Assembly: GCF_044324785.1 (NCBI RefSeq)
Contig: NZ_CP172127.1
Origin: Escherichia coli
GTDB lineage: Bacteria > Pseudomonadota > Gammaproteobacteria > Enterobacterales > Enterobacteriaceae
Length of the DNA: 64,000 bases
Direction: 5' to 3' (one strand)
Shown here: piece by piece, positions 6,353-30,914 of the stretch
How positions within the stretch are numbered: position 1 is the first letter of the stretch
Layout of the letters: each line of letters opens with the position of its first letter
Notes under the pieces: model-generated
The model's input: only the letters and a program-made list of their open reading frames with translations
What the model was told of the DNA's origin: nothing
Database searches by the model: none
Translations under genes and position numbers: made by a program

Positions 6353-6360
6353 TTAAAAAA

Positions 6361-11041: not shown

Positions 11042-11052
11042 TGGTTATTCCC

Positions 11053-12276
11053 TCAATGCGCATGGGTAGCACTTTCAGAGCGCATCCGCTCCAGTGCGCC
11101 AGAAATATTGGCTTCGGAATCAATCAGGAACAGGCCGCTGGAAACCACCTTTTCACCTTCCGCCAGACCAGAGCGTAACGCGGTGACGCCTTGCGATGCC
11201 TGGAAAACGGCAACGCGTTTCGGTACAAAGCGCCCGTCGGCATCAACGGTAATCACCCGCTGTTCGTTGCCGGTATCAATCAGCGCCTGTGACGGAATGA
11301 GCAGCATCGGTTCGCTAGCGGTATTGAGTTGCAACCAGGCGTTCATTCCCGGTTTTAGCGCCTCGTCGGCGTTGTCGACTTCCAGACGCAGCTGCAGCGT
11401 GCGGGTCGCGGCATCCACGCCGGGTAGCAGGGTCCATTTGCGAATGGTGAGTGTTTTATCCGGTCGCGCCGGAACGGTGAGCGTAAACTGCGGGGCATCT
11501 TTCACCAGCCAGGCGATGGACTCCGGGATCGCTGCAGTGACCCACACCGGGTCCATACCCTGAATTTTCGCGACCACGTTATCTTTGGCGATATTCATAC
11601 CCGCACGCAGATCAAACGCGGTGATCACGCCATCAATGGGCGCTTTGAGCGTAAAGCGAGTCTGGATTTTTTGCGTGGCGATCAGGCGGCGAATATCCGC
11701 CTCCGGCATTCCCGCCAGTCTCAGCCGCTCAAGAATGCCTTCAGTCTGGGTCGCCGTACCGCCGGTTTCGCGCAGCAGTAAATACTCACTCTGCGCTTCC
11801 ACCCAGTCGGGAATGGTCAGGTCGAGAAGCGGCGCGCCCTTTTGCACTTTATCGCCCACGGTAAGCGGATACACCTTGTCGATAAACCCGGCGGCGCGGG
11901 CCTGCACAATGGCATACTGATACTCGTTGTAACTGACATTCGCCGGGAAACTCTGGGCAAAAGTCAGCGGCCCGCGCGTGACGGTAGCCGTTTTCACCCC
12001 CAGATTCTGCGTCTGAGTCGGGTCAATGCGCACACCAGACGCAGAACTCTCTTCATCGGCATATTTCGGCACCAGATCCATATCCATAAACGGCGATTTA
12101 CCTGGTTTATCGAACCGCGTATTGGGATACATCGGGTCGTACCAGAATAAGACTTTACGTTCTGCGGTCGACGTTTTTTCTGCGGGCAGTTCAGCCCGGT
12201 CAAACCAGGTAAAACCTGCCGCAGAAATAATACCGCCCGCGATCATGCTGCCGATAATAAGCGCGATTTTTTTCAT
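11053..12276 (-). CDS. cusB: Cu(I)/Ag(I) efflux membrane fusion protein CusB
   Basis: 407-aa ORF between cusF and cusA; MFP family. Confidence 0.9.
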   Translation of the reverse strand: MKKIALIIGSMIAGGIISAAGFTWFDRAELPAEKTSTAERKVLFWYDPMYPNTRFDKPGKSPFMDMDLVPKYADEESSASGVRIDPTQTQNLGVKTATVTRGPLTFAQSFPANVSYNEYQYAIVQARAAGFIDKVYPLTVGDKVQKGAPLLDLTIPDWVEAQSEYLLLRETGGTATQTEGILERLRLAGMPEADIRRLIATQKIQTRFTLKAPIDGVITAFDLRAGMNIAKDNVVAKIQGMDPVWVTAAIPESIAWLVKDAPQFTLTVPARPDKTLTIRKWTLLPGVDAATRTLQLRLEVDNADEALKPGMNAWLQLNTASEPMLLIPSQALIDTGNEQRVITVDADGRFVPKRVAVFQASQGVTALRSGLAEGEKVVSSGLFLIDSEANISGALERMRSESATHAH

Positions 12277-16308: not shown

Positions 16309-17051
16309 TTAGTTAGTTCAAACTCAAAGAGTGATGTATCGCCTTCTGTTATTATTTATCAATAAAACAGGGAAGACCTTATTGGTCGTCTGAAATCGAA
16401 GGTTATTCATTTTCGGATATTTACGAGATATTTAGATATGCAATTTAATCAAATTCGTGTTTCTACCAATTGTAGAGCACAATGCTATTACTAAATTTTC
16501 ATCACTATAAAAGAATCGGCTATAATATAAAGCGCAGTCAGGCATCATTAATCTCTATATTATTCACACAATCTATTTATCAAGTGAATTTGATAAATTC
16601 CTAATTTAAAATATTCACTATTAAGCCAGCGTCTAACGACGTTAAGATGGCAATGTGCAGATCATGTTATCAGGGTGGGGCGGTAGCGTATATTCCTTAT
16701 ACAAACCATCATTCATTTCAATAATATTTATTGAGTTATTTATTATTGTGAATAAAAAGACATTACAAATATTGGTTTAACTTTGCATATCAGGTGTTTT
16801 TTTGTTACTCGATGTAATATACGAGCCTGTCCTTAATAACATCGTGAACCCGTCAGTTGAGTTTGTGATTATTTTGTTGACTCAACAGCCCCCCGTTTCT
16901 CTGAAGTAAAATCCCGGACAAAATTCTCACATAACCATGACACTTTTCTGATATTCCCCGGTAACGCCTGAAGCCGGCCCGCTTATCTCATTACCCGACA
17001 TGTTGTACATGCAATATGTGCGGATTATTATTCATTTTCACGGAGGTTGCT

Positions 17052-18953
17052 ATGTCAACCGGATTACGTTTCACACTGGAAGTGGACGGCCTGCCACCGG
17101 ACGCTTTTGCGGTGGTCTCCTTTCATCTCACCCAGTCACTCTCTTCACTTTTTTCCCTAGACCTTTCTCTGGTCAGTCAGCAGGTTCTCTCCCTTGAATT
17201 TGCGCAGGTGCTGGACAAAATGGCCTACCTGACGGTATGGCAGGGCGATGACGTACAGCGCCGGGTGAAAGGCGTGGTGACCTGGTTTGAACTCGGGGAG
17301 AACGACAAAAACCAGATGCTGTACAGCATGAAGGTGCGCCCGCCGCTGTGGCGGGCAGGACTGCGTCAGAACTTCCGTATCTTCCAGAACGAGGACATCA
17401 GAAGCATCCTCGGCACCATACTGCAGGAAAACGACGTCACGGAGTGGAGCCCGCTGTTCAGCGAGCCGCATCCTTCCCGTGAGTTTTGTGTCCAGTACGG
17501 TGAAACCGATTACGACTTTCTCTGCCGGATGGCAGCGGAGGAAGGCATCTTCTTCTATGAGGAGCACGCGCAGAAAAGTACCGACCAGAGTCTGGTGCTG
17601 TGCGACACGGTCCGCTATCTGCCGGAGTCCTTTGAAATCCCCTGGAACCCGAACACCCGTACCGAGGTGAGCACCCTCTGCATCAGCCAGTTCCGCTACA
17701 GCGCACAAATCCGTCCTTCCTCCGTGGTGACCAAAGACTACACCTTTAAACGCCCCGGCTGGGCCGGGCGTTTTGACCAGGAAGGCCAGCATCAGGATTA
17801 CCAGCGCACACAGTATGAAGTGTATGACTGGCCGGGGCGTTTCAAGAGCGCCCACGGGCAGAACTTTGCCCGCTGGCAGATGGACGGCTGGCGAAACAAC
17901 GCAGAAACCGCGCGGGGAATGAGCCGCTCGCCGGAGATATGGCCGGGACGGCGAATTGTGCTGACGGAGCATCCGCAGGCGAACCTGAACCGGGAATGGC
18001 AGGTGGTGGCGAGCGAACTGCACGGCGAACAGCCGCAGGCGGTGCCGGGACGGCGGGGCGCGGGGACGGCGCTGGAGAACCAGTTTGTGGTAATCCCGGC
18101 AGACCGGACGTGGCGGCCACAGCCGAAGCCAAAGCCGTCAGTGGACGGTCCACAGAGCGCCGTCGTGACGGGGCCTGCGGGAGAGGAAATCTTCTGCGAC
18201 GAGCATGGCCGGGTGCGGGTGAAATTCAACTGGGACCGCTATAACCCGGCCAACCAGGACAGCTCGTGCTGGATACGGGTGGCGCAGGCGTGGGCGGGGC
18301 CGGGATTTGGCAACCTGGCGATACCGCGCGTGGGTCAGGAGGTCATTGTGGACTTCCTCAACGGCGACCCAGACCAGCCCATCATCATGGGCCGCACCTA
18401 TCACCAGGAAAACCGCACCCCCGGCAGCCTGCCGGGAACGAAGACGCAGATGACCATCCGCTCCAAAACATATATGGGCAGCGGGTTTAACGAGCTGAAG
18501 TTTGACGATGCAACAGGGAAAGAACAGGTCTACATCCACGCGCAGAAGAACATGGATACCGAGGTGCTCAACGACCGTACCACCACCGTAAAACACGATC
18601 ACCGCGAAACCGTAAAAAATGACCAGACGGTCACGATCCAGGAAGGTAACCGCCTTCTTACGGTGGCAAAAGGCCACAAAATCACAGGCGTACTAAAAGG
18701 GTCCTTATCTGAGGATGTCTTTCAGGACAGAGGCACGATTGCCGGTTCAGTGCATGTTGACGCTGTAAACAATGGTGGCGAAGGCGACGGTATACAGGCT
18801 TATACGGCGATTAAGCAAATTATGCTGGCCGTGGAGGAAAGCAAAATTGCGCTGACGCCGGATGGCATTCAGCTACAGGTCGGGGAATCGACGGTAATCA
18901 GGCTGTCGAAGGATGGCATCACCATCGTGGGCAGTTCTGTTTTCATCAACTGA
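17052..18953 (+). CDS. vgrG: Type VI secretion spike protein VgrG (Rhs-element-associated)
   Basis: ATG at 17052 after GGAGG; 633 aa MSTGLRFTLEVDGLPPDAFAVV... with gp27-like N-terminal and gp5-like beta-helix regions; directly upstream of DUF1795 and rhs genes. Confidence 0.8.
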   Translation: MSTGLRFTLEVDGLPPDAFAVVSFHLTQSLSSLFSLDLSLVSQQVLSLEFAQVLDKMAYLTVWQGDDVQRRVKGVVTWFELGENDKNQMLYSMKVRPPLWRAGLRQNFRIFQNEDIRSILGTILQENDVTEWSPLFSEPHPSREFCVQYGETDYDFLCRMAAEEGIFFYEEHAQKSTDQSLVLCDTVRYLPESFEIPWNPNTRTEVSTLCISQFRYSAQIRPSSVVTKDYTFKRPGWAGRFDQEGQHQDYQRTQYEVYDWPGRFKSAHGQNFARWQMDGWRNNAETARGMSRSPEIWPGRRIVLTEHPQANLNREWQVVASELHGEQPQAVPGRRGAGTALENQFVVIPADRTWRPQPKPKPSVDGPQSAVVTGPAGEEIFCDEHGRVRVKFNWDRYNPANQDSSCWIRVAQAWAGPGFGNLAIPRVGQEVIVDFLNGDPDQPIIMGRTYHQENRTPGSLPGTKTQMTIRSKTYMGSGFNELKFDDATGKEQVYIHAQKNMDTEVLNDRTTTVKHDHRETVKNDQTVTIQEGNRLLTVAKGHKITGVLKGSLSEDVFQDRGTIAGSVHVDAVNNGGEGDGIQAYTAIKQIMLAVEESKIALTPDGIQLQVGESTVIRLSKDGITIVGSSVFIN

Positions 18954-18980
18954 TTCACTCAGATTAACAGGGAGTATTTT

Positions 18981-19442
18981 ATGCAGTTCACTTTTAATGA
19001 AGGTCATATTCAGCTGCCATCGCAATGGCAGGATCAGTCGATGCAGGTCCTGGTGTCCACAGATAACAGTGGCATCAACCTGGTCATTACCCGCGAACCC
19101 GTTCCACAGGGAACCCTGACACCAGAACTGTACCAGGAAACGCTGGCGCTGTACCAGGGCAAACTTGATGGGTACACCGAACATGCCTGCCGGGAAATCA
19201 CTCTGGCAGAGGCCCCGGCCTGGCTGCTGGATTATTCCTGGAACGGTCCGGAAGATGAAGGGAATCAGGGGCGGATTAGCCAGATAGCCGTATTCCAGCG
19301 GCGTGGAGATACGCTGCTGACCTTCACTTTCAGCACCTCCTTATCCCTGAAGAACAGTCAAAAGACGATGCTGCTGGAGGTGATAAAGAGCTTCACCCCG
19401 TTGCCACCGGAGAATGACATCCAAAAGGACCAGCCGCGCTGA
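18981..19442 (+). CDS. DUF1795-family (EagR-like) effector-associated chaperone
   Basis: 153-aa ORF between vgrG and a prePAAR-containing rhs gene, the canonical position of Eag chaperones; assignment is by size and context. Confidence 0.55.
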   Translation: MQFTFNEGHIQLPSQWQDQSMQVLVSTDNSGINLVITREPVPQGTLTPELYQETLALYQGKLDGYTEHACREITLAEAPAWLLDYSWNGPEDEGNQGRISQIAVFQRRGDTLLTFTFSTSLSLKNSQKTMLLEVIKSFTPLPPENDIQKDQPR

Positions 19443-19461
19443 CATAAACGAGGGATAACAC

Positions 19462-22400
19462 ATGAGTGAAGGACCAGGCGGGCCACAGGGAGCGACCGCA
19501 GGCGGTACGCTGGCAATGCGAATGCTGTCACAGCAGGCGATGGTCGCCAGCCAGATGAAACGGGCAGCCAACGACAAAGCCATTGCACAGATGTTGGCAT
19601 CAAAAAAGTCTGGCCCCCCCGCCGCCAGGCTGGGCGATGAAATTCAGCACAAGAGTTTTTTGGGGGCGCTGGCAGGGGCCGTGCTGGGGGCGATAGTGAC
19701 CATCGCAGAAGGTTGCCTGATTATCGCCGCCTGTGCCACCGGCCCTTATGCGCTGGTTCTGGTGCCTGCGCTGATGTATGCCAGCTATAAGGCGAGTGAT
19801 TATGTGGAGGAGAAACAGAACCAGCTTGAATCCTGGATAAACAGCTTTTGTGACAAGGACGGGGCCATCAATACTGGTTCTAAAAATGTAAACATTAACG
19901 GAAAGCCCGCTGCCAGGGCCGCCGTCACACTTCCCCCTCCTCCCCTGACTGAAGCAATACCCTCTCCACCACAGGGGGAACCTTCATGGGGGGATATTGC
20001 CACTGACCTGCTTGAATCGGCAGCGGAAAAAGCAGTGCCACTGGCGAAGGCCTGGGGGAACGCTGTTATCACCCTGACGGACAGCAATGCCAGTTTTATG
20101 GATCGCTTATGTGCAGGCACATCGCTTCTGTTTCCCTACGGCCCGGTATTAATGGAGTTTGCCACCATGGTGGGCGGGCGTGGCGAAATCAAAAAAGACG
20201 TGGATTTCCCGGAAGCCGGTGAAGACACGGCGCTCTGCGACAAGGAGACTAAACCGCCGAGGATAGCCCAGGGCAGCAGCAACGTCTTCATCAACAATCA
20301 GCCTGCCGCGCGCAAGGGCGACAAACTGGAGTGCAGCGCGGCAATCGTGGAAGGTTCGCCGGACGTCTTTATTGGGGGTGAGCAGGTCACCTATCTGGAT
20401 ATCCAGCCGGAGTTCCCGCCGTGGCAGAGAATGATCCTGGGGGGAATAACGATAGCCAGCTATCTTCTGCCGCCAGCGGGACTGCTGGGAAAAATGAAGA
20501 ATCTGGCGAGACTCGGCAAACTGGGAAACCTGCTGGGGAAAAGCGGGAAGCTGCTGGGCGCAAAACTCGGCGCATTGCTGAGCAGAACAAAAAATGCCCT
20601 GAAAAATACGTATAACGTCCTGAAAAAGTTTATCAAAGATCCGGTTGACCCGGTAACCGGCGCGTACTGCGACGAACGTACCGACTTCACCCTGGGCCAG
20701 ACCCTCCCCCTCTCCTTCACCCGTTTCCACAGTTCTGTACTGCCACTGCATGGCCTGACGGGCGTGGGCTGGAGCGACTCCTGGAGCGAATACGCCTGGG
20801 TGCGTGAACAGGGAAACCGGGTGGATATCATCAGCCAGGGAGCCACGCTGTACTTTGCCTTCGACGGAGACAGTGATACGGCGGTTAACCCGTATCACGC
20901 CCAGTATATCCTGCGCCGCCGCGACGATTACCTGGAGCTGTTCGACCGTGATGCCCTGAGCAGCCGCTTCTTTTATGACGCCTTTCCGGGAATGCGCCTG
21001 CGCCACCAGGTGACCGGCGATACCAATGATGACCGCCTGGCACACAGCCCCGGTGACCGGATGTACATGCTGGGCGGAATGAGTGACACCGCCAGCAACC
21101 GCATCACGTTTGAGCGCGACAGTCAGTACCGGATCACGGGTGTCAGTCACACCGACGGGATCCGGCTTAAACTGACGTACCACGCCAGCGGCTACCTGAA
21201 AGCCATTCACCGCACGGATAACGGCATACAGACGCTGGCGACCTACGAACAGGACGAACGGGGACGGCTGACAGAAGCGGATGCGCGGCTGGACTACCAC
21301 CTGTTTTATGAGTACGACGATGCGGACCGGATCATCCGCTGGTCCGATAACGACCAGACGTGGAGCCGTTTCACCTACGATGCACAGGGCCGGTGCGTGA
21401 CCGTCACCGGGGCGGAAGGCTATTACAACGCCACGCTGGACTATGGTGACGGCTGCACTTCCGTGACGGACGGCAAGGGCATTCACCGTTATTACTATGA
21501 TCCTGACGGCAATATCCTGCGGGAAGACGCGCCGGACGGCAGTACCACCACGTATGAATGGGATGAATTCCATCACCTGCTGGCCCGCCACTCCCCTGCC
21601 GGACGGGTGGAGAAATTTGAATACAACGCCGTACACGGTCAGTTAAGCCGTTACACGGCGGCAGACGGCGCGGTGTGGCAGTACCGCTATGATGAGCGCG
21701 GCCTGCTCAGCAACATCACCGACCCTGCCGGGCAGACGTGGACACAGCAGTGTGATGAACGCGGCCTGCCGGTAAGTCTGGTGTCGCCACAGGGCGAAGA
21801 GACCCGGCTGGCGTACACGCCACAGGGGCTGCTGTCGGGGATATTCCGCCAGGATGAACGGCGTCTGGGCATAGAGTACGACCACCACAACCGGCCGGAA
21901 ACACTCACCGACGTGATGGGCCGTGAACACCACACCGAATACAGCGGTCACGACCTGCCGGTGAAGATGCGCGGCCCCGGCGGTCAGTCAGTGCGGTTAC
22001 AGTGGCAGCAGCACCATAAACTGAGTGGCCTTGAGCGGGCAGGAACCGGCGCGGAAGGATTCCGCTACGACCGCCACGGCAACCTGCTGGCGTACACGGA
22101 CGGTAACGGCGTTGTCTGGACAATGGAATACGGCCCGTTCGATTTGCCGGTGGCGCGAACGGACGGTGAAGGCCACCGCTGGCAGTACCGCTACGATAAA
22201 GACACGCTGCAACTGACAGAAGTCATCAATCCGCAGGGTGAGTCATACCGTTATATTCTCGACAACTGTGGCCGGGTGACGGAAGAGCGTGACTGGGGCG
22301 GCGTGGTCTGGCGTTACCGCTATGACGCCGATGGCCTGTGTACCGCCAGGGTTAACGGCCTGGAGGAAACTATCCTCTACAGCCGGGACGCCGCAGGCCG

Positions 22401-24324
22401 CCTGGCAGAAGTCATCACCCCGGAAGGCAAAACGCAGTATGCGTATGACAAATCCGGCAGGCTGACGGGTATCTTCAGCCCGGACGGCACATCACAGCGC
22501 ACCGGCTACGACGAACGCGGGCGGGTGAATGTCACCACTCAGGGCAGACGGGCCATTGAGTACCACCACCCCGATGAACACACCGTTATCCGCTGTATCC
22601 TGCCACCGGAAGATGAACGCGACAGACACCCCGGTGAATCCCTGCTGAAAACCACCTACCGCTACAACGCCGCCGGAGAACTGACGGAGGTTATCCTGCC
22701 GGGGGATGAGACGCTGACGTTCAGCCGTGATGAGGCAGGACGTGAAGTGCTCCGGCACAGTAACCGGGGTTTTGCCTGTGAACAGGGCTGGAATGCAGCC
22801 GGTCAGCTTACCAGCCAGCGCGCCGGATTTTTCCCGGCGGAAGCCACATGGGGCGGACTGCTCCCCTCACTGGTGCGGGAGTACCGTTACGACAGCGCGG
22901 GCAATGTGTCGGCTGTCACCAGCCGGGAAGACTACGGACGGGAAACACGGCGGGAGTACCGGCTGGACCGGAACGGCCAGGTCACAACGGTGACAGCCTC
23001 AGGCACCGGGCTGGGCTATGGCGAAGGCGACGAGACTTATGGCTATGACAGCTGCGGCTACCTGAAGGCGCAGTCTGCGGGCAGGCACCGGATAAGTGAA
23101 GAGACTGACCAGTATGCCGGAGGCCACCGGCTGAAACAGGCCGGAAACACGCAGTATGACTATGACGCCGCAGGCCGGATGGTCAGCCGCACCAGACACC
23201 GTGACGGCTACCGCCCGGAAACAGAGCGGTTCCGGTGGGACAGCCGGGACCAGCTGACCGGGTATTGCAGCGCACAGGGGGAGCAGTGGGAATACCGCCA
23301 CGACGCCAGCGGCAGGCGGACGGAAAAACGCTGCGACCGGAAGAAAATCCGTTTTACGTACCTGTGGGACGGCGACAATATTGCGGAAATCCGGGAATAC
23401 CGCGATGATAAACTGTACAGCGTACGGCACCTGGTGTTTAACGGCTTTGAGCTGGTAAGCCAGCAGTGCAGCCGGGTACGGCAGGCGCATCCGTCCGTGG
23501 CCCCGCAGTGGGTGACGCGAACGAATTATGCGGTGAGCGACCTGACAGGCCGCCCGCTGATGCTCTTTAACAGTGAAGGTAAAACCGTCTGGCGGCCGGG
23601 ACAGACCAGCCTGTGGGGGCTGGCACTCAGCCTGCCCGCAGACACCGGCTACCCGGACCCGCGCGGGGAACTGGACCCGGAAGCCCCCCCCGGCCTGCTG
23701 TATGCGGGACAGTGGCAGGATACGGAATCGGGGCTGTGCTATAACCGGTTCCGGTATTACGAGCCGGAAACCGGAATGTACCTGGTGAGTGATCCGCTGG
23801 GGTTGCAGGGAGGTGAGCAGACTTACCGGTATGTGCCTAATCCTTGTGGGTATGTTGATCCGCTGGGGCTGGCAAAAACCAGTATTATAAAATCTTCTAC
23901 AGGCAAAATCCCACAAGGGTTAACAAAAAGCGAATTTGAGATTTTTTCAAAAAAATTAAAGGATGTATTAGCCCGAGAGGGAATCTCGACAGAGAATGTG
24001 TTTGTACATGGCAGTAGAGCCAGAGGAGATGCTGTATCAGGTGTTTCAGATATTGATATAAAAGTGATCCTTAGTGATAAAGATTTTGGTGCCTTTGCAG
24101 CAAGACGTATTGCTGAGTCCTCAGGAAGGACTCGAAATTTAATCAGGAAGGCCGTTGCTAAAAATCAAAAAATAAATTCAAGAGGAATTTCTAAAACTTT
24201 TGAATCTACTGTATGGGATGAGGTTTTCACTACCTTACCAAAAGGTGAGTTTTCAAGCATTCAAGTTTCTGTTATGACCAAAACTTCACCATTCAACACT
24301 AATCCGAGTATTATATTACCATGA
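19462..24324 (+). CDS. rhs: Rhs-family polymorphic toxin: prePAAR motif + TM helices + PAAR domain + YD-repeat shell + DPxGL boundary + 150-aa C-terminal nucleotidyltransferase-like toxin domain
   Basis: 1620-aa ORF; N-terminal AARLGDEIQH (AARxxDxxxH prePAAR) then hydrophobic helices; PAAR region GSSNVFINNQPAARKGDKLECSAAIVEGSPDVFIGG; many YD repeats; core ends VSDPLGLQGGEQTYRYVPNPCGYVDPLGL; C-terminal domain is much more AT-rich and contains VHGSRARGDAVSGVSDIDIKV. Confidence 0.9.
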   Translation: MSEGPGGPQGATAGGTLAMRMLSQQAMVASQMKRAANDKAIAQMLASKKSGPPAARLGDEIQHKSFLGALAGAVLGAIVTIAEGCLIIAACATGPYALVLVPALMYASYKASDYVEEKQNQLESWINSFCDKDGAINTGSKNVNINGKPAARAAVTLPPPPLTEAIPSPPQGEPSWGDIATDLLESAAEKAVPLAKAWGNAVITLTDSNASFMDRLCAGTSLLFPYGPVLMEFATMVGGRGEIKKDVDFPEAGEDTALCDKETKPPRIAQGSSNVFINNQPAARKGDKLECSAAIVEGSPDVFIGGEQVTYLDIQPEFPPWQRMILGGITIASYLLPPAGLLGKMKNLARLGKLGNLLGKSGKLLGAKLGALLSRTKNALKNTYNVLKKFIKDPVDPVTGAYCDERTDFTLGQTLPLSFTRFHSSVLPLHGLTGVGWSDSWSEYAWVREQGNRVDIISQGATLYFAFDGDSDTAVNPYHAQYILRRRDDYLELFDRDALSSRFFYDAFPGMRLRHQVTGDTNDDRLAHSPGDRMYMLGGMSDTASNRITFERDSQYRITGVSHTDGIRLKLTYHASGYLKAIHRTDNGIQTLATYEQDERGRLTEADARLDYHLFYEYDDADRIIRWSDNDQTWSRFTYDAQGRCVTVTGAEGYYNATLDYGDGCTSVTDGKGIHRYYYDPDGNILREDAPDGSTTTYEWDEFHHLLARHSPAGRVEKFEYNAVHGQLSRYTAADGAVWQYRYDERGLLSNITDPAGQTWTQQCDERGLPVSLVSPQGEETRLAYTPQGLLSGIFRQDERRLGIEYDHHNRPETLTDVMGREHHTEYSGHDLPVKMRGPGGQSVRLQWQQHHKLSGLERAGTGAEGFRYDRHGNLLAYTDGNGVVWTMEYGPFDLPVARTDGEGHRWQYRYDKDTLQLTEVINPQGESYRYILDNCGRVTEERDWGGVVWRYRYDADGLCTARVNGLEETILYSRDAAGRLAEVITPEGKTQYAYDKSGRLTGIFSPDGTSQRTGYDERGRVNVTTQGRRAIEYHHPDEHTVIRCILPPEDERDRHPGESLLKTTYRYNAAGELTEVILPGDETLTFSRDEAGREVLRHSNRGFACEQGWNAAGQLTSQRAGFFPAEATWGGLLPSLVREYRYDSAGNVSAVTSREDYGRETRREYRLDRNGQVTTVTASGTGLGYGEGDETYGYDSCGYLKAQSAGRHRISEETDQYAGGHRLKQAGNTQYDYDAAGRMVSRTRHRDGYRPETERFRWDSRDQLTGYCSAQGEQWEYRHDASGRRTEKRCDRKKIRFTYLWDGDNIAEIREYRDDKLYSVRHLVFNGFELVSQQCSRVRQAHPSVAPQWVTRTNYAVSDLTGRPLMLFNSEGKTVWRPGQTSLWGLALSLPADTGYPDPRGELDPEAPPGLLYAGQWQDTESGLCYNRFRYYEPETGMYLVSDPLGLQGGEQTYRYVPNPCGYVDPLGLAKTSIIKSSTGKIPQGLTKSEFEIFSKKLKDVLAREGISTENVFVHGSRARGDAVSGVSDIDIKVILSDKDFGAFAARRIAESSGRTRNLIRKAVAKNQKINSRGISKTFESTVWDEVFTTLPKGEFSSIQVSVMTKTSPFNTNPSIILP

Positions 24325-24671
24325 AGAAAAAAGATATTAGATTTGCAATATCCATTAACTCCAACTTAAGTAAGATAGAATTAATGGAAAAAATTAAAAA
24401 TATAATCCCAGGGCTTATTGAAATAACTTCCAGTGCATTAAGAGAAGAAAAAAACATGGTAGTTATTGAAGAAAATGATCTTTATGACCCTATAAAAGCA
24501 GAGGGAGCTGATGGATGGATGTATTATAAATTCATATTATCCATATTCCCATTAAAGGGAGTGGAAACAACATTAGAATATCAACGGGAATTATCTTTTC
24601 TTTTCTTAAAGAAAATAAAAGATGCGGGCCTGTTGGGTGAACTTATATGCGAGGATGATTTTCATGACTGA
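24321..24671 (+). CDS. Putative cognate immunity protein (RhsI) for the Rhs C-terminal toxin
   Basis: 116-aa AT-rich ORF whose ATG overlaps the rhs stop (ATGA); position and composition typical of Rhs immunity genes; no recognisable domain. Confidence 0.6.
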   Translation: MKKKDIRFAISINSNLSKIELMEKIKNIIPGLIEITSSALREEKNMVVIEENDLYDPIKAEGADGWMYYKFILSIFPLKGVETTLEYQRELSFLFLKKIKDAGLLGELICEDDFHD

Positions 24672-24729
24672 TGACCTCTACATATATCCTCAGTTCGTGG
24701 CTGGTATTACATGATCTGACAGGGAAAGA

Positions 24730-24883
24730 TCGTGGCGAAATCAAAAAAGACGTGGATTTCCCGGAAGCCGGTGAGGACACGGCGCTCTGCGACAAGGAGA
24801 ACAAACCACCGAGGATAGCCCAGGGCAGCAGCAACGTCTTCATCAACAATCAGCCTGCCGCACGCAAAGGGGACAAACTGCAG
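24730..24883 (+). pseudogene. Displaced 154-bp fragment of the rhs PAAR-encoding region
   Basis: Near-identical to main rhs 20177-20329 (GEIKKDVDFPEAGEDTALCDKE.KPPRIAQGSSNVFINNQPAARKGDKL); preceded by CAGGGAAAGATC at 24718-24729 and truncated by the IS left end at 24881. Confidence 0.8.
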
Positions 24884-26171
24884 GGAAAGATCACGTAACG
24901 CTGCTTTTTTGTACTAAATAATTCGCATTTTATGTTTAAAAATTGAGATATTCCTCATTACCTAAAGCTGTTTTTTATTGCTTATACATGATCAAATACT
25001 CCTTACATAATTAAGGAGAACAAAATGGAACTTAAAAAATTGATGGAACATATTTCTGTTATCCCCGATTACAGACAAGCATGGAAAGTAGAACATAAAT
25101 TGTCAGATATTCTACTGTTGACTATTTGCGCCGTCATTTGTGGTGCAGAAGGCTGGGAAGATATAGAGGATTTTGGTGAAACACATCTCGATTTTTTGAA
25201 GCAATATGGTGATTTTGAAAATGGTATTCCTGTCCACGATACCATTGCCAGAGTTGTATCCTGTATCAGTCCTGCAAAATTTCACGAGTGCTTTATTAAC
25301 TGGATGCGAGATTGCCATACTTCAGATGATAAAGACGTTATTGCAATCGATGGAAAAACACTCCGGCATTCTTATGACAAGAGTCGCCGCAGGGGAGCGA
25401 TTCATGTCATTAGTGCGTTCTCAACAATGCACAGTCTGGTCATCGGACAGATCAGGACGGATGAGAAATCTAATGAGATTACAGCTATCCCAGAACTTCT
25501 TAACATGCTGGATATTAAAGGAAAAATCATCACAACTGATGCGATGGGTTGCCAGAAAGATATTGCAGAGAAGATACAAAAACAGGGCGGTGATTATTTA
25601 TTCGCTGTAAAAGGAAATCAGGGGCGGCTTAATAAAGCCTTTGAGGAAAAATTCCCACTGAAAGAATTAAATAATCCAGAGCATGATAGTTACGCAATTA
25701 GTGAAAAGAGTCACGGCAGAGAAGAAATCCGACTTCATATTGTTTGCGATGTCCCTGATGAACTTATTGATTTCACGTTTGAATGGAAAGGGCTGAAGAA
25801 ATTATGCATAGCAGTCTCCTTTCGCTCAATAATAGCAGAGCAAAAGAAAGAGCCAGAAATGACGGTCAGATATTATATCAGTTCTGCTGATTTAAACACA
25901 GAAAAGTTCGCCACAGCAATCCGAAACCACTGGCACGTGGAGAATAAGCTGCACTGGCGTCTGGATGTGGTAATGAATGAAGACGACTGCAAAATAAGAA
26001 GAGGAAATGCAGCAGAATTATTTTCAGGGATACGGCACATCGCTATTAATATTTTGACGAATGATAAGGTATTCAAGGCAGGGTTAAGACGTAAGATACG
26101 AAAAGCAGCTATGGACAGAAACTACATGGCGTCAGTCCTTGCGGGGAGCGGGCTTTCGTAATCTTTCCCTG
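24881..26171 (+). mobile_element. ISAs1-family insertion sequence (Rhs H-repeat element), copy 1, ~1.29 kb
   Basis: Terminal inverted repeats CAGGGAAAGAT... (left) and ...ATCTTTCCCTG (right); contains a 378-aa transposase ORF; second copy at 31026-32315. Confidence 0.8.
25025..26161 (+). CDS. ISAs1-family transposase (H-repeat-associated protein, YhhI/YdcC/YbfD-like)
   Basis: 378-aa [40 protein letters not shown]...; recognised as the H-rpt protein family of Rhs elements. Confidence 0.85.
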
Positions 26172-27289: not shown

Positions 27290-30051
27290 TTTGCCAGTGG
27301 GACGAATACCATCACCTGCTGGCGAGGCTGTCTCCGGCAGGACGGCTGGAAAAGTTTGACTATCATCTGACACTCGGTCAGTTAAGCCGTTACACGGCGG
27401 CAGACGGCGCGGAGTGGCAGTACCGCTATGATGAGCGCGGCCTGCTCAGCAACATCACCGACCCTGCCGGGCAGACGTGGACACAGCAGTGCGATGAACG
27501 CGGCCTGCCGGTGAGTCTGGTGTCGCCACAGGGCGAAGAGACCCGGCTGGCGTACACCGCTCAGGGGCTGCTGTCGGGGATATTCCGCCAGGATGAACGG
27601 CGTCTGGGCATAGAGTACGACCACCACAACCGGCCGGAAACACTCACCGACGTGATGGGCCGTGAACACCACACCGAATACAGCGGTCACGACCTGCCGG
27701 TGAAGATGCGCGGCCCCGGCGGTCAGTCAGTGCGCTTACAGTGGCAGCAGCACCATAAACTGAGCGGCATTGAACGTGCTGGAACCGGCGCGGAAGGATT
27801 TCGCTATGACCGCCACGGCAACCTGCTGGCCTGGACGGACGGCAACGGTGTTGACTGGACAATGGAATACGGCCCGTTTGATTTGCCGGTGGCGCGAACG
27901 GACGGTGAAGGCCACCGCTGGCAGTACCGCTACGATAAAGACACGCTGCAACTGACAGAAGTCATCAATCCGCAGGGCGAGTCATACCGTTATATTCTCG
28001 ACAACTGTGGGCGGGTGACGGAAGAGCATGACTGGGGCGGCGTGGTCTGGCGTTACCGCTATGACGCCGATGGTCTGTGTACCGCCAGGGTTAACGGCCT
28101 GGAGGAAACCATCCTCTACAGCCGGGACGCCGCAGGCCGCCTGGCAGAAGTCATCACCCCGGAAGGGAAAACGCAGTATGCGTATGACAAATCCGGCAGG
28201 CTGACGGGTATCTTCAGCCCGGACGGCACATCACAGCGCACCGGCTACGACGAACGCGGGCGGGTGAATGTCACCACTCAGGGCCGACGGGCCATTGAAT
28301 ACCACCACCCCGATGAACACACCGTCATCCGCTGTATCCTGCCACCGGAAGATGAACGCGACAGACACCCCGGTGAATCCCTGCTGAAAACCACCTACCG
28401 CTACAACGCCGCCGGAGAACTGACGGAGGTTATCCTGCCGGGGGATGAGACGCTGACGTTCAGCCGTGATGAGGCAGGACGTGAAGTGCTCCGGCACAGT
28501 AACCGGGGTTTTGCCTGTGAACAGGGCTGGAATGCAGCCGGTCAGCTTACCAGCCAGCGCGCCGGATTTTTCCCGGCGGAAGCCACATGGGGCGGACTGC
28601 TCCCCTCACTGGTGCGGGAGTACCGTTACGACAGCGCGGGCAATGTGTCGGCTGTCACCAGCCGGGAAGACTACGGACGGGAAACACGGCGGGAGTACCG
28701 GCTGGACCGGAACGGCCAGGTCACAACGGTGACAGCCTCAGGCACCGGGCTGGGCTATGGCGAAGGCGACGAGACTTATGGCTATGACAGCTGCGGCTAC
28801 CTGAAGGCGCAGTCTGCGGGCAGGCACCGGATAAGTGAAGAGACTGACCAGTATGCCGGAGGCCACCGGCTGAAACAGGCCGGAAACACGCAGTATGACT
28901 ATGACGCCGCAGGCCGGATGGTCAGCCGCACCAGACACCGTGACGGCTACCGCCCGGAAACAGAGCGGTTCCGGTGGGACAGCCGGGACCAGCTGACCGG
29001 GTATTGCAGCGCACAGGGGGAGCAGTGGGAATACCGCCACGACGCCAGCGGCAGGCGGACGGAAAAACGCTGCGACCGGAAGAAAATCCGTTTTACGTAC
29101 CTGTGGGACGGCGACAATATTGCGGAAATCCGGGAATACCGCGATGATAAACTGTACAGCGTACGGCACCTGGTGTTTAACGGCTTTGAGCTGGTAAGCC
29201 AGCAGTGCAGCCGGGTACGGCAGGCGCATCCGTCCGTGGCCCCGCAGTGGGTGACGCGAACGAATTATGCGGTGAGCGACCTGACAGGCCGCCCGCTGAT
29301 GCTCTTTAACAGTGAAGGTAAAACCGTCTGGCGGCCGGGACAGACCAGCCTGTGGGGGCTGGCACTCAGCCTGCCCGCAGACACCGACTACCCGGACCCG
29401 CGCGGGGAGCTGGACCCGGAAGCCGACCCCGGCCTGCTGTATGCAGGACAGTGGCAGGATACGGAATCAGGGCTGTGCTATAACCGGTTCCGGTACTACG
29501 AGCCGGAAACCGGAATGTACCTGGTGAGTGATCCGCTGGGGTTGCAGGGGGGTGAGCAGACTTACCGGTATGTGCCGAATCCTTTAAGATATAAAGATTT
29601 CTATGGGCTTAGTAAGAGTTCAATAATAACGAGAGGAAAGAATGCTGGTCATGGCTATGCAGCCAGCGTTACACCTGGAGGCAAAGGTACGGTGTTGGCT
29701 GGTCACGGAGGATCAAAATTTGGCGATAAAATGATTATACCAGAAGGCGTATCGATAACGATGCCGAGAGATGGTATTAAAATATCAGATATGACTGGAA
29801 AATTACTGGAATCTGGTAATGTGGATGATATAATTAAAGCTGCAAGTAATAATCCTCGTGTAGCTAGCGATCTTGAAGGTTGGGTTACTTATTTGCCCGG
29901 CACTGAAATCCCTGATTATATTTTAAAACCACCCACCAATCTTAACATACTGGAAAATTCAGTAACGGTGAACACTTCAACTTATTTATCTCAAATGGTA
30001 AATGCTGGTCAAGGTAATGTAATCTGGGCTGCATGCACCGAATTTTTTTAA
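27290..30051 (+). pseudogene. rhs: Orphan rhs module: 3' part of the rhs core (no in-frame start; reading frame opens at 27255) fused to an alternative ~155-aa C-terminal toxin domain
   Basis: Homology to main rhs begins ~27290 (main 21565) and is near-identical from 27385; frame has a stop at 27252-27254 and no ATG until 27511; core ends ...DPLGLQGGEQTYRYVPNP then diverges (LRYKDFYGLSKSSIITRGKNAGHGYAAS...). Confidence 0.8.
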
Positions 30052-30065
30052 CGCGGGGTAATCGT

Positions 30066-30548
30066 ATGTATTTTAAAGATGATACTGACTATACATATTT
30101 CCTTCCTAATGAATATTTTTTACACGGGGTGAAAAATGTGGGCTGGATAGACAGAGAACACCCCTTCACAAAAGGGATTAGTGACGCTGAATTTATTGAA
30201 AAGTTAAAAGCAATAATTCTAACAGAGAATGAAGCAACTTGTTTTTCAGTTAATAAAATAAGAGGATTTCACAAATGTAATTTTTGCAATAGTGAAATGA
30301 TAACAATAACCGATGGAAGAAAAAAAGGATACCTTGGCATGAGTGAAATATGGATTCCATCCATCCACCATAATGAGTATTACGCGTTTCCTTCATTAAT
30401 TTTCCATTATATAACATCTCACATGTATAGACCACCAGAGGACTTTATTGTATCTGTTTTAAACTTGAATTTAAGCGAGAGTTTTTGCGCTCAAAACATA
30501 TATGACAATAAAATTAAGGAATTAAAAATAGACTTCTGGTTTCGTTAA
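30066..30548 (+). CDS. Putative immunity protein for the orphan Rhs C-terminal domain
   Basis: ATG at 30066, 15 bp after the orphan rhs stop; 160 aa, AT-rich, contains CNFCN and His-rich segment; no recognisable domain. Confidence 0.5.
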   Translation: MYFKDDTDYTYFLPNEYFLHGVKNVGWIDREHPFTKGISDAEFIEKLKAIILTENEATCFSVNKIRGFHKCNFCNSEMITITDGRKKGYLGMSEIWIPSIHHNEYYAFPSLIFHYITSHMYRPPEDFIVSVLNLNLSESFCAQNIYDNKIKELKIDFWFR

Positions 30549-30726: not shown

Positions 30727-30912
30727 TTGATATGACGCCTGGCACACAGCCCCGGTGACCGGATGTATATGCTGGGCGGGATGAGCGACACCGCCAGCAA
30801 CCGCATCACGTTTGAGCGCGACAGCCAGTACCGGATCACGGGTGTCAGTCACACCGACGGGATCCGGCTTAAACTGACGTACCACGCCAGCGGCTACCTG
30901 AAAGCCATTCAC
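30727..30912 (+). pseudogene. Rhs core fragment (copy of main rhs ~21040-21225) truncated by an IS left end
   Basis: Encodes RLAHSPGDRMYMLGGMSDTASNRITFERDSQYRITGVSHTDGIRLKLTYHASGYLKAIHR, near-identical to the main rhs; followed by CAGGGAAAGATCACG at 30915. Confidence 0.8.
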
Positions 30913-30914
30913 CG

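What the first reader, a model, noticed from the sequence alone, without database searches (positions are those of the whole stretch)
19462..20460. Rhs N-terminus combines a prePAAR motif, transmembrane helices and a PAAR domain next to a DUF1795 chaperone gene
Residues ~50-110 contain AARLGDEIQH (the AARxxDxxxH prePAAR motif) followed by hydrophobic helices (FLGALAGAVLGAIVTIAEGCLIIAACATGPYALVLVPALMYA), and a PAAR-like region around 20270-20400 (SSNVFINNQPAARKGDKLECSAAIVEGSPDVFIGG). The upstream 153-aa ORF is in the position of an Eag/DUF1795 chaperone. This architecture defines the chaperone-dependent class of membrane-anchored PAAR effectors loaded on VgrG, so this effector is predicted to require the 18981-19442 gene product for stability and secretion.
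Basis: partly seen in the sequence, partly recalled or inferred. Interest (0 to 1): 0.4.

Follow-up and report, generated by a model that had tools for sequence, protein, structure and literature searches.

The report
Known E. coli VgrG–EagR–Rhs effector module
The region encodes the loading end of a standard bacterial toxin that is fired at rival bacteria on a type VI secretion spike and is kept stable by a small chaperone gene next to it. The same E. coli island has already been described and tested by others, so it is ordinary.

Summary
The 1620-aa Rhs ORF (19462-24324) has AARLGDEIQH at residues 54-63, then a two-helix hydrophobic hairpin (about residues 65-107) and a PAAR domain (PF05488, 58.7 bits). 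The upstream 153-aa ORF is a DUF1795/DcrB-family Eag protein (PF08786, 97.9 bits). Its AlphaFold model matches EagT6 and SciW best. A VgrG gene lies immediately upstream.

It is not new. The same vgrG-eag-rhs island sits between cusS and nfrB in 2292 of 5426 complete E. coli genomes. In O157 Sakai (ECs_0607-0605) the Eag is 99.3% identical. Two papers cite Ma et al. 2017 as showing that vgrGO1 and eagR are needed to deliver the Rhs toxins of this type of island.

- The PAAR domain is in three pieces. A roughly 98-aa, mostly helical insertion (residues 156-253) is absent from most homologues.
- A hydrophobic helix follows PAAR and corresponds to a second EagR-binding site in Photorhabdus Rhs1.
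- Both Rhs self-cleavage motifs are present.
- The C-terminal toxin is a rare nucleotidyltransferase-like domain.

No core T6SS gene was identified in the window (not every ORF was searched).

The parts
17016..18953 (+). VgrG spike protein (645-aa ORF). The true start is probably the ATG at 17052, which gives a 633-aa protein as in the RefSeq homologues.
   Evidence: TIGR03361 E 1e-188; Phage_GPD, Phage_base_V and Gp5_trimer_C domains. 94.4% identical to Sakai ECs_0607, which starts MSTGLRF.
18981..19442 (+). Eag (EagR-type) chaperone of the DUF1795/DcrB family, 153 aa, with no signal peptide or lipobox.
   Evidence: PF08786 97.9 bits. phmmer hit to EagT6 6xrf, E 4e-5. AF2 model pLDDT 85.9; its top Foldseek hits are EagT6-Tse6NT and SciW, TM-score 0.61-0.73. 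pN/pS 0.04-0.08 against two other E. coli strains.
19462..24324 (+). Full-length class I prePAAR Rhs effector, 1620 aa.
   Evidence: RHS_repeat E 4e-76, PAAR, DUF6531, Rhs_assc_core and NTP_transf_2. An intact ORF.
19462..19620 (+). N-terminal leader (residues 1-53), predicted to be one long helix (residues 13-47). It is longer than in most homologues, where prePAAR starts at residue 3-9.
   Evidence: AF2; prePAAR positions in 88 homologues.
19621..19650 (+). prePAAR motif AARLGDEIQH (residues 54-63).
   Evidence: Regular-expression match. A54 and H63 invariant, A55/R56/D59 at least 90% conserved. PF25799 22.8 bits, below its cut-off.
19654..19782 (+). TMD region (residues about 65-107): two hydrophobic helices with a G68xxxG72xxxG76 glycine zipper. 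This is the predicted Eag-binding site.
   Evidence: Kyte-Doolittle profile. AF2 helices 66-91 and 94-127. G76 invariant. Aligns to the TMD1 region of Tre23/Rhs1.
19861..19926 (+). Middle piece of the PAAR domain (residues 134-155, GAINTGSKNVNINGKPAARAAV).
   Evidence: Alignment with 54 homologues; G134 invariant. Beta strands in the AF2 model with pLDDT 96-97.
19927..20220 (+). Lineage-specific insertion of about 98 aa within the PAAR domain (residues 156-253): a proline-rich linker followed by 2-3 amphipathic or hydrophobic helices. No known domain.
   Evidence: Gap in the alignment to Tre23. Most homologues align in two stretches, and the insertion site is clean in the alignment. AF2 helices 176-206, 212-223 and 228-237 with pLDDT 47-77. 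No Pfam or PDB hit. pN/pS 0.40.
20221..20397 (+). C-terminal piece of the PAAR domain (residues 254-312), including the invariant C259, R284 and C291.
   Evidence: PF05488 residues 261-310, E 6.5e-16. Invariant columns. pN/pS 0.04-0.07.
20398..20637 (+). Post-PAAR region (residues 313-392): the hydrophobic helix MILGGITIASYLLPPAGLLG followed by Gly/Lys-rich amphipathic helices. It corresponds to the second EagR-binding site in P. laumondii Rhs1.
   Evidence: Kyte-Doolittle mean 1.62 at residue 333. AF2 helices 320-335 and 338-350. Aligned to Tre23 residues 139-308. PMC8636562.
20638..20664 (+). Predicted N-terminal autocleavage motif D393-PVDPVTGA.
   Evidence: Aligns to DPIDVTTGQ in the deposited 7pq5 chain L. 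The paper's D288/P289 PVYVASGE signature was not matched to this stretch. Start of DUF6531.
23791..23871 (+). C-terminal aspartyl autoprotease signature: DPLGL (residues 1444-1448), 17 residues, DPLGL (1466-1470). Cleavage is predicted before A1471.
   Evidence: Regular-expression match. Rhs_assc_core TIGR03696. Motif definition from PMC8636562.
23872..24321 (+). C-terminal toxin domain (residues 1471-1620), a minimal Pol-beta-type nucleotidyltransferase fold (GS...DxD).
   Evidence: PF01909 28.7 bits against a cut-off of 21. Weak PDB hit 2rff. GC falls from about 0.61 to 0.34. The complete toxin-plus-immunity sequence is in only 1 of 5426 E. coli genomes. Only 4 database homologues.
24321..24671 (+). 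Presumed immunity gene (116 aa). Its start codon overlaps the rhs stop codon (ATGA).
   Evidence: Position. No Pfam hit. Retained as an orphan in 138 further genomes.
24731..24883 (+). 153-bp remnant copy of the PAAR-coding segment (a copy of 20179-20331, 94.8% identical), abutting ISEc1.
   Evidence: Self-BLAST. The 75-aa ORF 24671-24898 (which spans the 153-bp copy) hits PF05488. Annotated as a partial PAAR pseudogene in strain N3.
27298..30548 (+). Orphan Rhs core with an Stv-domain C-terminal cassette (ORF 27511-30051) and a DUF7919 ORF (30033-30548). It has no N-terminal loading module.
   Evidence: 97.4% repeat of 21559-23845. Pfam hits.

Best explanation
This is the loading and translocation module of a class I prePAAR Rhs effector in the conserved E. 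coli vgrG-eagR-rhs island, which lies between cusS and nfrB.

Shown here from sequence and models:
- vgrG, eag, rhs and a small downstream ORF form a tight co-directional cluster: gaps of 27 and 19 nt, then a 4-nt overlap.
- Rhs residues 54-63 carry the prePAAR motif, residues about 65-107 form a two-helix hydrophobic hairpin, and residues 134-155 plus 254-312 supply the rest of the PAAR fold.
- The 153-aa protein has the Eag fold.

Inferred from characterised homologues (Tse6/EagT6, Salmonella Rhs1/SciW, P. protegens RhsA/EagR1, P. laumondii Rhs1/EagR):
- An Eag dimer clamps the TMD hairpin, and probably also the post-PAAR hydrophobic helix, in the producer's cytoplasm. This keeps Rhs stable and off the producer's own membrane.
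- The prePAAR strand folds back to complete the split PAAR cone, with H63 as a zinc ligand alongside C259 and C291. The cone caps the gp5-like tip of the adjacent VgrG.
- A T6SS encoded elsewhere fires the spike.
- In the target cell the TMDs insert into the inner membrane. The Rhs cage self-cleaves at D393/P394 and after the second DPLGL, releasing the 150-aa nucleotidyltransferase-like toxin. The 116-aa downstream product protects sibling cells.
For: - Domain hits: PAAR 58.7 bits, DcrB/DUF1795 97.9 bits, RHS repeats E 4e-76, VgrG E 1e-188.
- The literal AARxxDxxxH motif and the hydropathy profile.
- phmmer: the Rhs N-terminus matches Tre23/Rhs1 7pq5 at E 4e-38, and the Eag matches EagT6 6xrf at E 4e-5.
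- The AF2 Eag model (pLDDT 85.9) has EagT6-Tse6NT and SciW-Rhs1 TMD complexes as its top PDB matches.
- The AF2 N-terminal model (pLDDT 77) places the prePAAR strand and both PAAR pieces at pLDDT 90-97.
- H63, C259, C291, G76 and R284 are invariant across 55 homologues.
- 7 of the 12 EagT6 residues that contact the TMD are identical or conservatively replaced, including L66 to L62 and Q102 to Q101 (alignment, PMC7773334).
- Purifying selection: pN/pS 0.04-0.24 for Eag, prePAAR-TMD and PAAR.
- Synteny and 92-99% protein identity with O157 Sakai ECs_0605 to ECs_0607.
- The island is present in 2292 of 5426 complete E. coli genomes.
- Literature: class definitions and chaperone dependence (PMC7773334); EagR needed for Rhs1 stability, with two binding sites (PMC8636562); vgrGO1 and eagR needed for Rhs-CT delivery in E. 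coli (Ma et al. 2017, as cited in PMC6730261 and bioRxiv 10.1101/2024.03.05.583533).
Against: - No core T6SS gene was identified in the 64-kb window, though the ORFs beyond the island were only partly identified, so whether this strain can fire the effector is unknown.
- Pfam prePAAR_I is just below its cut-off (22.8 against 25 bits).
- The position that is usually His in the CxxH zinc-ligand motif is Glu here (C259-D-K-E262).
- Foldseek of the whole N-terminal model against the PDB found PAAR proteins only weakly (E 0.07-0.3). The fold is split in sequence by the TMD and the insertion, which is the likely reason.
- The island carries IS elements and Rhs fragments, and the closest sequenced relative (strain N3) has its copy annotated as frameshifted.
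- Nothing was measured experimentally for this particular allele.
- Sources disagree on which E. coli T6SS uses this VgrG: T6SS1 in the bioRxiv paper, and 'resembles T6SS-2 VgrGs' in PMC7216683.
Confidence: 0.9

Rival explanations
1. The island is an inactive or repurposed relic in this strain. The genes are intact but are not used for T6SS delivery, either because the strain has no functional T6SS or because the operon is silent. In that case the Rhs toxin and immunity pair acts only inside the cell, as a toxin-antitoxin-like module, as reported for Salmonella RHS elements.
For: - No core T6SS gene was identified in the window.
- The island is littered with two ISEc1 copies, Rhs fragments and an orphan cassette.
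- The N3 homologue is annotated as a frameshifted pseudogene.
- PMC7043789 (listed) reports a toxin-antitoxin-like role for Salmonella Rhs.
- PMC7216683 notes that some O157 strains lack T6SS structural genes.
Against: - All four ORFs are intact with every functional motif preserved.
- There is strong purifying selection on Eag and PAAR (pN/pS 0.04-0.08).
- The operon spacing is tight and no convincing internal terminator was found.
- The island is kept in 42% of complete E. coli genomes.
- Delivery from homologous E. coli islands has been reported.
Confidence: 0.12
2. The effector does not behave as a simple class I protein with one TMD region and one Eag site. It has up to three chaperone- or membrane-interacting elements: the TMD hairpin, the helical insertion inside PAAR, and the post-PAAR helix. 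Its Eag stoichiometry and translocation mechanism would then differ from the Salmonella Rhs1/SciW model.
For: - The post-PAAR helix reaches the Kyte-Doolittle TM threshold (1.62), and the equivalent region in P. laumondii Rhs1 binds EagR.
- The insertion contains amphipathic and hydrophobic helices (hydrophobic moment 0.31-0.41; hydropathy up to 1.19).
- Unrelated insertions at the same loop in other lineages are also hydrophobic, for example P0039 and P0053.
Against: - The insertion is under weaker constraint (pN/pS 0.40).
- It is modelled with low confidence (pLDDT 47-77).
- It has no segment that passes a TM threshold.
- There are no binding data.
Confidence: 0.25
3. The 153-aa protein is a DcrB-like envelope protein unrelated to effector handling, and its position next to rhs is incidental.
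For: The Pfam family that matches is named DcrB, and RefSeq calls the protein 'DcrB-related'. Salmonella DcrB 6e8a also appears among the fold matches.
Against: - The N-terminus (MQFTFNEGHIQLPSQWQDQ) has no signal peptide or lipobox cysteine.
- The best sequence and structure matches are the EagT6 and SciW chaperones, not DcrB (E 1e-7 against 3e-4).
- The gene is conserved between vgrG and rhs.
- More than 90% of the related PAAR subgroup have a DUF1795 neighbour (PMC8651086).
Confidence: 0.02

Closest known systems
E. coli VgrGO1-EagR-Rhs-CT island (O157 Sakai ECs_0607/0606/0605; EDL933 vgrG1 z0707 island; Ma et al. 2017)
   Same: - Same chromosomal site (cusS to nfrB) and same gene order.
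- Eag 99.3% identical, VgrG 94.4%, Rhs N-terminal 400 aa 92% identical, including the 98-aa insertion.
- ISEc1 and orphan Rhs cassettes lie downstream in both.
   Different: Only the C-terminal toxin and immunity cassette differs. Here it is a nucleotidyltransferase-like toxin found complete in 1 of 5426 genomes. The orphan cassettes and IS copies downstream also differ.
Photorhabdus laumondii Rhs1 (Tre23) with EagR and VgrG (PDB 7pq5; PMC8636562)
   Same: - Best solved homologue of the N-terminus (E 4e-38).
- Same order of elements: leader, prePAAR, TMD1, PAAR, post-PAAR helix, N-terminal cleavage motif, Rhs cage, double DPLGL, toxin.
- The gene order vgrG-eagR-rhs-immunity is the same.
   Different: - The E. 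coli protein has a roughly 98-aa insertion between the second and third PAAR segments, and a 53-aa rather than roughly 30-aa leader.
- The toxin domain differs (ADP-ribosyltransferase there).
- The Photorhabdus locus is inside a T6SS cluster, whereas this one is a stand-alone vgrG island.
Salmonella Typhimurium Rhs1-SciW and P. protegens RhsA-EagR1 (class I prePAAR effectors; PMC7773334)
   Same: AARxxDxxxH motif, a single TMD region upstream of PAAR, an Rhs cage, and an adjacent Eag chaperone with the same fold (SciW Foldseek E about 1e-6, TM-score 0.61-0.70).
   Different: - SciW is not detectable by sequence from this Eag (no phmmer hit at E up to 10); identity in the structural alignment is only 13-15%.
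- Pfam prePAAR_I, which by its Pfam description ("Class I prePAAR effector Rhs1 motif") is named for Rhs1, scores just below threshold.
- Those proteins have prePAAR at the extreme N-terminus. Whether they carry an insertion in PAAR was not examined.
P. aeruginosa Tse6-EagT6 (class II prePAAR effector)
   Same: - Closest chaperone by sequence (EagT6, E 4e-5, 22% identity).
- The prePAAR motif and split-PAAR logic are the same.
- L66 and Q102, two of the residues that contact the TMD, are conserved.
   Different: Tse6 is small, has no Rhs cage, has a true second TMD region and carries the GxxxxGxxLxGxxxD motif. That motif is absent here.

Membership tests
Class I prePAAR T6SS effector (Ahmad et al. 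2020) | AARxxDxxxH prePAAR motif N-terminal to the TMD and PAAR | tested here: met
   AARLGDEIQH at residues 54-63. A54 and H63 invariant, A55/R56/D59 at least 90% conserved in 55 homologues.
Class I prePAAR T6SS effector (Ahmad et al. 2020) | Score above the gathering threshold of Pfam PF25799 (prePAAR_I) | tested here: not met
   22.8 bits against a cut-off of 25, E 1.2e-4, residues 54-99. This is a database threshold, not part of the published definition.
Class I prePAAR T6SS effector (Ahmad et al. 2020) | One region of TM helices between prePAAR and PAAR | tested here: met
   Kyte-Doolittle 19-residue means of 1.6 or more centred at 73-86 and 90-97. AF2 helices 66-91 and 94-127. No dedicated TM predictor was available.
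Class I prePAAR T6SS effector (Ahmad et al. 2020) | PAAR domain | tested here: met
   PF05488 58.7 bits against a cut-off of 27. phmmer hits to the PAAR proteins 4jiw and 4jiv. The Foldseek hits to PAAR structures are weak (E 0.07-0.3).
Class I prePAAR T6SS effector (Ahmad et al. 2020) | Large Rhs protein with YD repeats, and without the class II motif GxxxxGxxLxGxxxD | tested here: met
   1620 aa; RHS_repeat E 4e-76; YD_repeat_2x E 2.9e-71. No match to the class II motif by regular expression.
Class I prePAAR T6SS effector (Ahmad et al. 2020) | Three Zn ligands in PAAR, with the fourth (His) supplied by prePAAR | tested here: inconclusive
   H63, C259 and C291 are invariant, but the usual His of the CxxH motif is Glu262 here. 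That position also varies in other homologues. The model coordinates could not be inspected.
Class I prePAAR T6SS effector (Ahmad et al. 2020) | Eag-dependent stability and T6SS-dependent export | not testable with these tools
   Reported for E. coli VgrGO1 islands, as described by secondary sources that cite Ma et al. 2017; synteny with this island was checked only against Sakai. The primary paper was not available to read.
Eag / DUF1795 effector chaperone | PF08786 (DcrB/DUF1795) domain above threshold | tested here: met
   97.9 bits against a cut-off of 27.2, covering profile positions 1-127 of 127.
Eag / DUF1795 effector chaperone | Fold matches solved Eag chaperones | tested here: met
   AF2 pLDDT 85.9. 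Foldseek: 6xrf EagT6 E 1.2e-7, TM-score 0.65-0.73; 6xrb/6xrr SciW E about 1e-6. The high rmsd (about 8 Å) may reflect the domain-swapped dimer seen in the crystals.
Eag / DUF1795 effector chaperone | Conserved TMD-contacting residues (EagT6 I22, I24, S37, V39, S41, Q58, A62, L66, L98, Q102, F104, I113) | tested here: inconclusive
   From the phmmer alignment and the residue list in PMC7773334. L62 and Q101 are identical. M21, V23, V35, L113 and T37 are conservative replacements. N33 and T54 are polar but different. Y58, G97 and A103 differ. Positions are approximate at 22% identity.
Eag / DUF1795 effector chaperone | Cytoplasmic protein encoded next to its prePAAR effector | tested here: met
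   No signal peptide or lipobox in the sequence. The gene lies 19 nt upstream of rhs and 27 nt downstream of vgrG.
Eag / DUF1795 effector chaperone | Dimer that binds the effector TMD | not testable with these tools
   Only single-chain prediction was available.
T6SS Rhs polymorphic toxin | C-terminal aspartyl autoprotease: two DPLGL motifs 17 residues apart, preceding the toxin | tested here: met
   D1444PLGL, 17 aa, D1466PLGL, then A1471. TIGR03696 67.7 bits. Motif definition in PMC8636562.
T6SS Rhs polymorphic toxin | N-terminal cleavage motif (Asp-Pro followed by xVxxTGx) | tested here: met
   K-D393-PVDPVTGA aligns to DPIDVTTGQ in the deposited 7pq5 chain L. The paper's D288/P289 PVYVASGE signature was not matched to this stretch. 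Cleavage itself was not tested.
T6SS Rhs polymorphic toxin | Variable C-terminal toxin with lower GC content, followed by an immunity gene | tested here: met
   GC is 0.60-0.64 in the core and 0.34-0.39 from position 24000. NTP_transf_2 hit. An overlapping 116-aa ORF follows. Toxicity and immunity were not tested.
E. coli cusS-nfrB vgrG island (VgrGO1 / vgrG1) | Same insertion site, same gene order and near-identical VgrG, Eag and Rhs N-terminus | tested here: met
   Sakai locus ECs_0601 to ECs_0608. Identities of 94.4%, 99.3% and 92%. Strains SC423 and N3 have the same layout.
Functional T6SS effector | A T6SS core cluster in the same genome | not testable with these tools
   No core T6SS gene was identified in the 64-kb window; the ORFs beyond the island were not systematically searched. 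The rest of the genome was not available.

The most novel reading that the evidence does not exclude
The roughly 98-aa helical insertion (residues 156-253) sits in the PAAR loop just before the invariant C259. It would be a functional add-on rather than a neutral loop expansion: a third membrane-active or Eag-binding element close to the zinc site at the spike tip, acquired independently at the same loop in several Enterobacterales lineages (E. coli, Erwinia tracheiphila, Serratia microhaemolytica; shorter and unrelated inserts in a Salmonella, an Erwiniaceae strain and two metagenomic proteins). This would define a 'thrice-split PAAR' subclass of class I prePAAR effectors. No paper read here describes it.
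Probability: 0.2. Interest if true: 0.35.

Novelty: already known. Interest (0 to 1): 0.13.

Why it matters
It matters little as a discovery. The prePAAR-TMD-PAAR plus Eag architecture was defined in 2020, Escherichia was included in that survey, and secondary sources report that delivery from this type of E. coli island depends on VgrGO1 and EagR.

The result is useful for annotation. RefSeq labels the chaperone only 'DcrB-related protein' and the effector 'RHS repeat-associated core domain-containing protein', which hides the functional link between them.

Two details could be worth a specialist's time:
- The conserved insertion inside the PAAR domain of this very common E. coli effector family.
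- The rare nucleotidyltransferase-like toxin domain, whose target is unknown.

Tried and rejected
- Foldseek of the 400-aa N-terminal AF2 model against the PDB. PAAR proteins came top but only at E 0.07-0.3, so I used this as weak corroboration only.
- Pfam and PDB sequence searches of the insertion, the leader and the post-PAAR region on their own. Nothing scored better than E 0.016.
- A regular-expression search for the class II motif GxxxxGxxLxGxxxD. It was absent here and in all 150 representative homologues, so the class II reading was rejected.
- A sequence search for SciW starting from this Eag. There was no hit even at E up to 10; the relationship is visible only at the fold level.
- A check of whether strain N3 is the source genome. 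The C-terminal toxin and immunity region is 100% identical, but the rest of the island is 97.7% identical with 164 mismatches, so it is a different strain.
- A chimeric Eag-Eag-Rhs N-terminus AlphaFold run to model the complex. I considered it and did not run it, because no paired alignment was available and only the single-chain tool exists.
- A homologue search for the C-terminal toxin returned only 4 proteins, too few to build a profile.
- A literature search for nucleotidyltransferase toxins carried by Rhs proteins. Zhang et al. 2012, the only hit opened, discusses only RelA/SpoT-type toxins (one search listed the hits).


Full report
**Observation**

The window is E. coli chromosome. Positions 1-12000 match cusA/cusB, pheP and ybdG-ybdK at about 98% identity in essentially all complete E. 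coli genomes. An island lies between cusS (ending at 16308) and nfrB (starting at 32503). It begins with four co-directional ORFs:
- VgrG, 17016-18953.
- A 153-aa ORF, 18981-19442.
- A 1620-aa Rhs ORF, 19462-24324.
- A 116-aa ORF, 24321-24671.

The gaps between them are 27 and 19 nt, followed by a 4-nt overlap. A GAGGG ribosome-binding site precedes the rhs ATG. I found no convincing plus-strand terminator between the genes.

AARLGDEIQH is Rhs residues 54-63. The hydrophobic block is residues 66-107. The quoted PAAR-like stretch is residues 272-306.

**Domain evidence**

- PAAR: PF05488 scores 58.7 bits against a cut-off of 27.
- The 153-aa ORF: PF08786 (DcrB, formerly DUF1795) scores 97.9 bits against a cut-off of 27.2.
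- VgrG: TIGR03361 gives E 1e-188.
- Rhs repeats, DUF6531 and the Rhs-associated core are all strong hits.
- The dedicated Pfam prePAAR_I model scores 22.8 bits, just under its 25-bit cut-off. The literal motif is complete, and A54 and H63 are invariant in an alignment of 55 homologues drawn from a search of 1.8 billion representative proteins.
- Kyte-Doolittle 19-residue means reach 1.6 or more in two adjacent peaks, centred at 73-86 and 90-97. This is a two-helix hairpin forming a single TMD region.
- The class II signature GxxxxGxxLxGxxxD is absent.

These features fit the published definition of a class I prePAAR effector: large, Rhs-containing, with one TMD region upstream of PAAR (PMC7773334).

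**The chaperone**

By sequence the 153-aa protein matches EagT6 (6xrf and 1tu1, E 4e-5). SciW is not detected even at E up to 10. An AlphaFold model built from 24 homologues has a mean pLDDT of 85.9. Its best PDB matches are the EagT6-Tse6NT complex (E 1.2e-7), apo SciW and SciW bound to the Rhs1 TMD (about 1e-6), ahead of PsbP-type folds and Salmonella DcrB (3e-4).

The protein has no signal peptide or lipobox, unlike DcrB. Of the 12 EagT6 residues reported to contact the TMD (PMC7773334), L66 and Q102 are identical here (L62, Q101) and five more are conservatively replaced. The TMD carries a G68xxxG72xxxG76 zipper of the kind that fits those contacts.

Against two other E. coli alleles, pN/pS is 0.04-0.08 for Eag, 0.04-0.07 for the C-terminal PAAR piece and 0.16-0.24 for prePAAR-TMD. 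The genes are therefore under purifying selection.

The closest solved relative of the N-terminus is Photorhabdus laumondii Rhs1/Tre23 (7pq5, E 4e-38). It aligns in two blocks: query residues 48-155 to Tre23 27-139, and query 254-413 to Tre23 139-308. About 98 residues (156-253) are therefore inserted between the middle PAAR strand (…GKPAARAAV) and the conserved D…C259 segment.

Nearly all distant homologues show the same two-block alignment. In the multiple alignment the insertion site is clean. Homologous long inserts occur in Erwinia tracheiphila and Serratia microhaemolytica. Shorter, unrelated inserts at the same loop occur in a Salmonella, an Erwiniaceae strain and two metagenomic proteins.

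AlphaFold (pLDDT 77 overall) models three parts with different confidence:
- The prePAAR strand and both PAAR pieces, at pLDDT 90-97.
- The TMD, as helices 66-91 and 94-127.
- The insertion, as a proline-rich linker plus helices 176-206, 212-223 and 228-237, at lower confidence (pLDDT 47-77).

The insertion has no Pfam or PDB match. It evolves faster than the rest of the module but is still constrained (pN/pS 0.40).

After PAAR comes the hydrophobic helix MILGGITIASYLLPPAGLLG (Kyte-Doolittle 1.62). It corresponds to the post-PAAR region that forms a second EagR-binding site in the Photorhabdus protein (PMC8636562).

Both autoproteolysis signatures are present:
- D393-PVDPVTGA, which aligns to DPIDVTTGQ in the deposited 7pq5 sequence. 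The paper places the N-terminal cleavage signature at D288/P289 (PVYVASGE); I did not reconcile the two numberings.
- Two DPLGL motifs exactly 17 residues apart. This places the toxin start at A1471.

**Mechanism**

The shown steps are the gene arrangement, the motifs, the folds and the evolutionary constraint. The remaining steps are inferred from the characterised homologues:
- An Eag dimer grips the TMD hairpin, and probably the post-PAAR helix, in the producer's cytoplasm.
- prePAAR completes the split PAAR cone and supplies H63 to the zinc site alongside C259 and C291.
- The cone caps the adjacent VgrG.
- A T6SS encoded elsewhere fires the spike.
- The TMDs enter the target cell's inner membrane.
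- The Rhs cage self-cleaves and releases the toxin.

**Comparison with what is known**

The island is present in 2292 of 5426 complete E. coli genomes. In O157:H7 Sakai it occupies the same cusS-nfrB site as ECs_0607 (VgrG, 94.4% identical), ECs_0606 (Eag, 99.3%) and ECs_0605 (Rhs; 92% over the first 400 residues, insertion included). ISEc1 and an orphan Rhs lie downstream there too.

PMC7216683 describes a vgrG1 (z0707) island in EDL933 with a DUF1795 gene downstream of vgrG; I take this to be the same island and did not check EDL933 directly. PMC6730261 and bioRxiv 10.1101/2024.03.05.583533 report, citing Ma et al. 2017, that vgrGO1 and eagR are needed for delivery of the Rhs-CT toxins of the VgrGO1-type island. 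I could not read the primary paper. Escherichia was one of the genera in the original prePAAR survey. The finding is therefore already known, and the predicted chaperone dependence has already been reported for this type of island.

**Limits**

- No core T6SS gene was identified in the window, and ORFs outside the island were not systematically searched, so activity in this strain cannot be judged.
- Sources disagree on which E. coli T6SS uses this VgrG.
- The usual His of the CxxH zinc motif is Glu here. That position also varies in other homologues.
- No dedicated TM predictor or multimer modelling was available.

**Other features of the island**

- The C-terminal toxin (residues 1471-1620) hits NTP_transf_2 at 28.7 bits against a cut-off of 21, with a GS…DxD signature.
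- GC content falls from about 0.61 to 0.34 at the toxin.
- The complete toxin-plus-immunity sequence occurs in only one other complete E. coli genome, strain N3. A further 138 genomes keep just its 3' part together with the immunity gene.
- Only four homologues turned up in a 5.8-billion-protein search.
- Downstream lie a 153-bp copy of the PAAR-coding segment abutting ISEc1, a second ISEc1, a 190-bp Rhs fragment, and an orphan Rhs core (97.4% repeat) with an Stv-domain toxin and a DUF7919 ORF. This is the usual debris of Rhs cassette exchange.

**Verdict**

Novelty is 'already known' and interest is low. The only mildly novel thread is the conserved insertion inside the PAAR domain.

Noticed in passing
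window 19927-20220 (Rhs residues 156-253): A roughly 98-aa, mostly helical, proline-rich insertion splits the PAAR domain. It is absent from most homologues, including the solved Photorhabdus Rhs1. Related long inserts occur in Erwinia tracheiphila and Serratia microhaemolytica, and unrelated shorter inserts occur at the same loop in other lineages.
   Followed up: yes
window 23872-24671: The Rhs C-terminal toxin is a minimal Pol-beta-type nucleotidyltransferase-like domain (PF01909, 28.7 bits), followed by a 116-aa presumed immunity gene with no family hit. The complete pair is in 1 of 5426 complete E. coli genomes. 138 others keep only the 3' part plus the immunity gene. Only 4 database homologues were found (Pectobacterium, Proteus, and two of unstated origin (ENA and Logan records)).
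   Followed up: partly
window 24731-24883 and 30732-30920: Short remnants of the rhs 5' region lie next to the two ISEc1 copies (24879-26171 and 31023-32315). One is 153 bp, a copy of 20179-20331 that encodes part of PAAR. The other is 190 bp, a copy of 21029-21218.
   Followed up: partly
window 27298-30548: An orphan Rhs core (97.4% identical to 21559-23845) has no N-terminal loading module. It ends in an Stv 'putative adhesin' domain (PF21527) and is followed by a DUF7919 ORF. This is probably a spare toxin and immunity cassette.
   Followed up: partly
window 17016-17052: The longest vgrG ORF starts 12 codons upstream of the start used in RefSeq homologues (MSTGLRF…). The real start is probably 17052.
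   Followed up: partly
L002 (E. coli N3, NZ_CP031609.1) compared with window 17000-24700: Strain N3 shares the toxin and immunity segment at 100% identity, but the rest of the island is only 97.7% identical, and its rhs is annotated as a frameshifted pseudogene. This pattern is consistent with exchange of the C-terminal cassette between diverged islands.
   Followed up: partly
window 18981-19442: This E. coli Eag is detectable by sequence from Pseudomonas EagT6, the chaperone of a class II effector, but not from Salmonella SciW, the chaperone of a class I effector. Yet it serves a class I effector. Eag sequence similarity therefore does not track effector class.
   Followed up: no
window 44737-64000, minus strand: A run of minus-strand ORFs includes two of about 1135 aa (45318-48725 and 49453-52866) and many small ORFs. 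It may be a prophage tail region (a guess from ORF layout only, no search run). I did not examine it.
   Followed up: no
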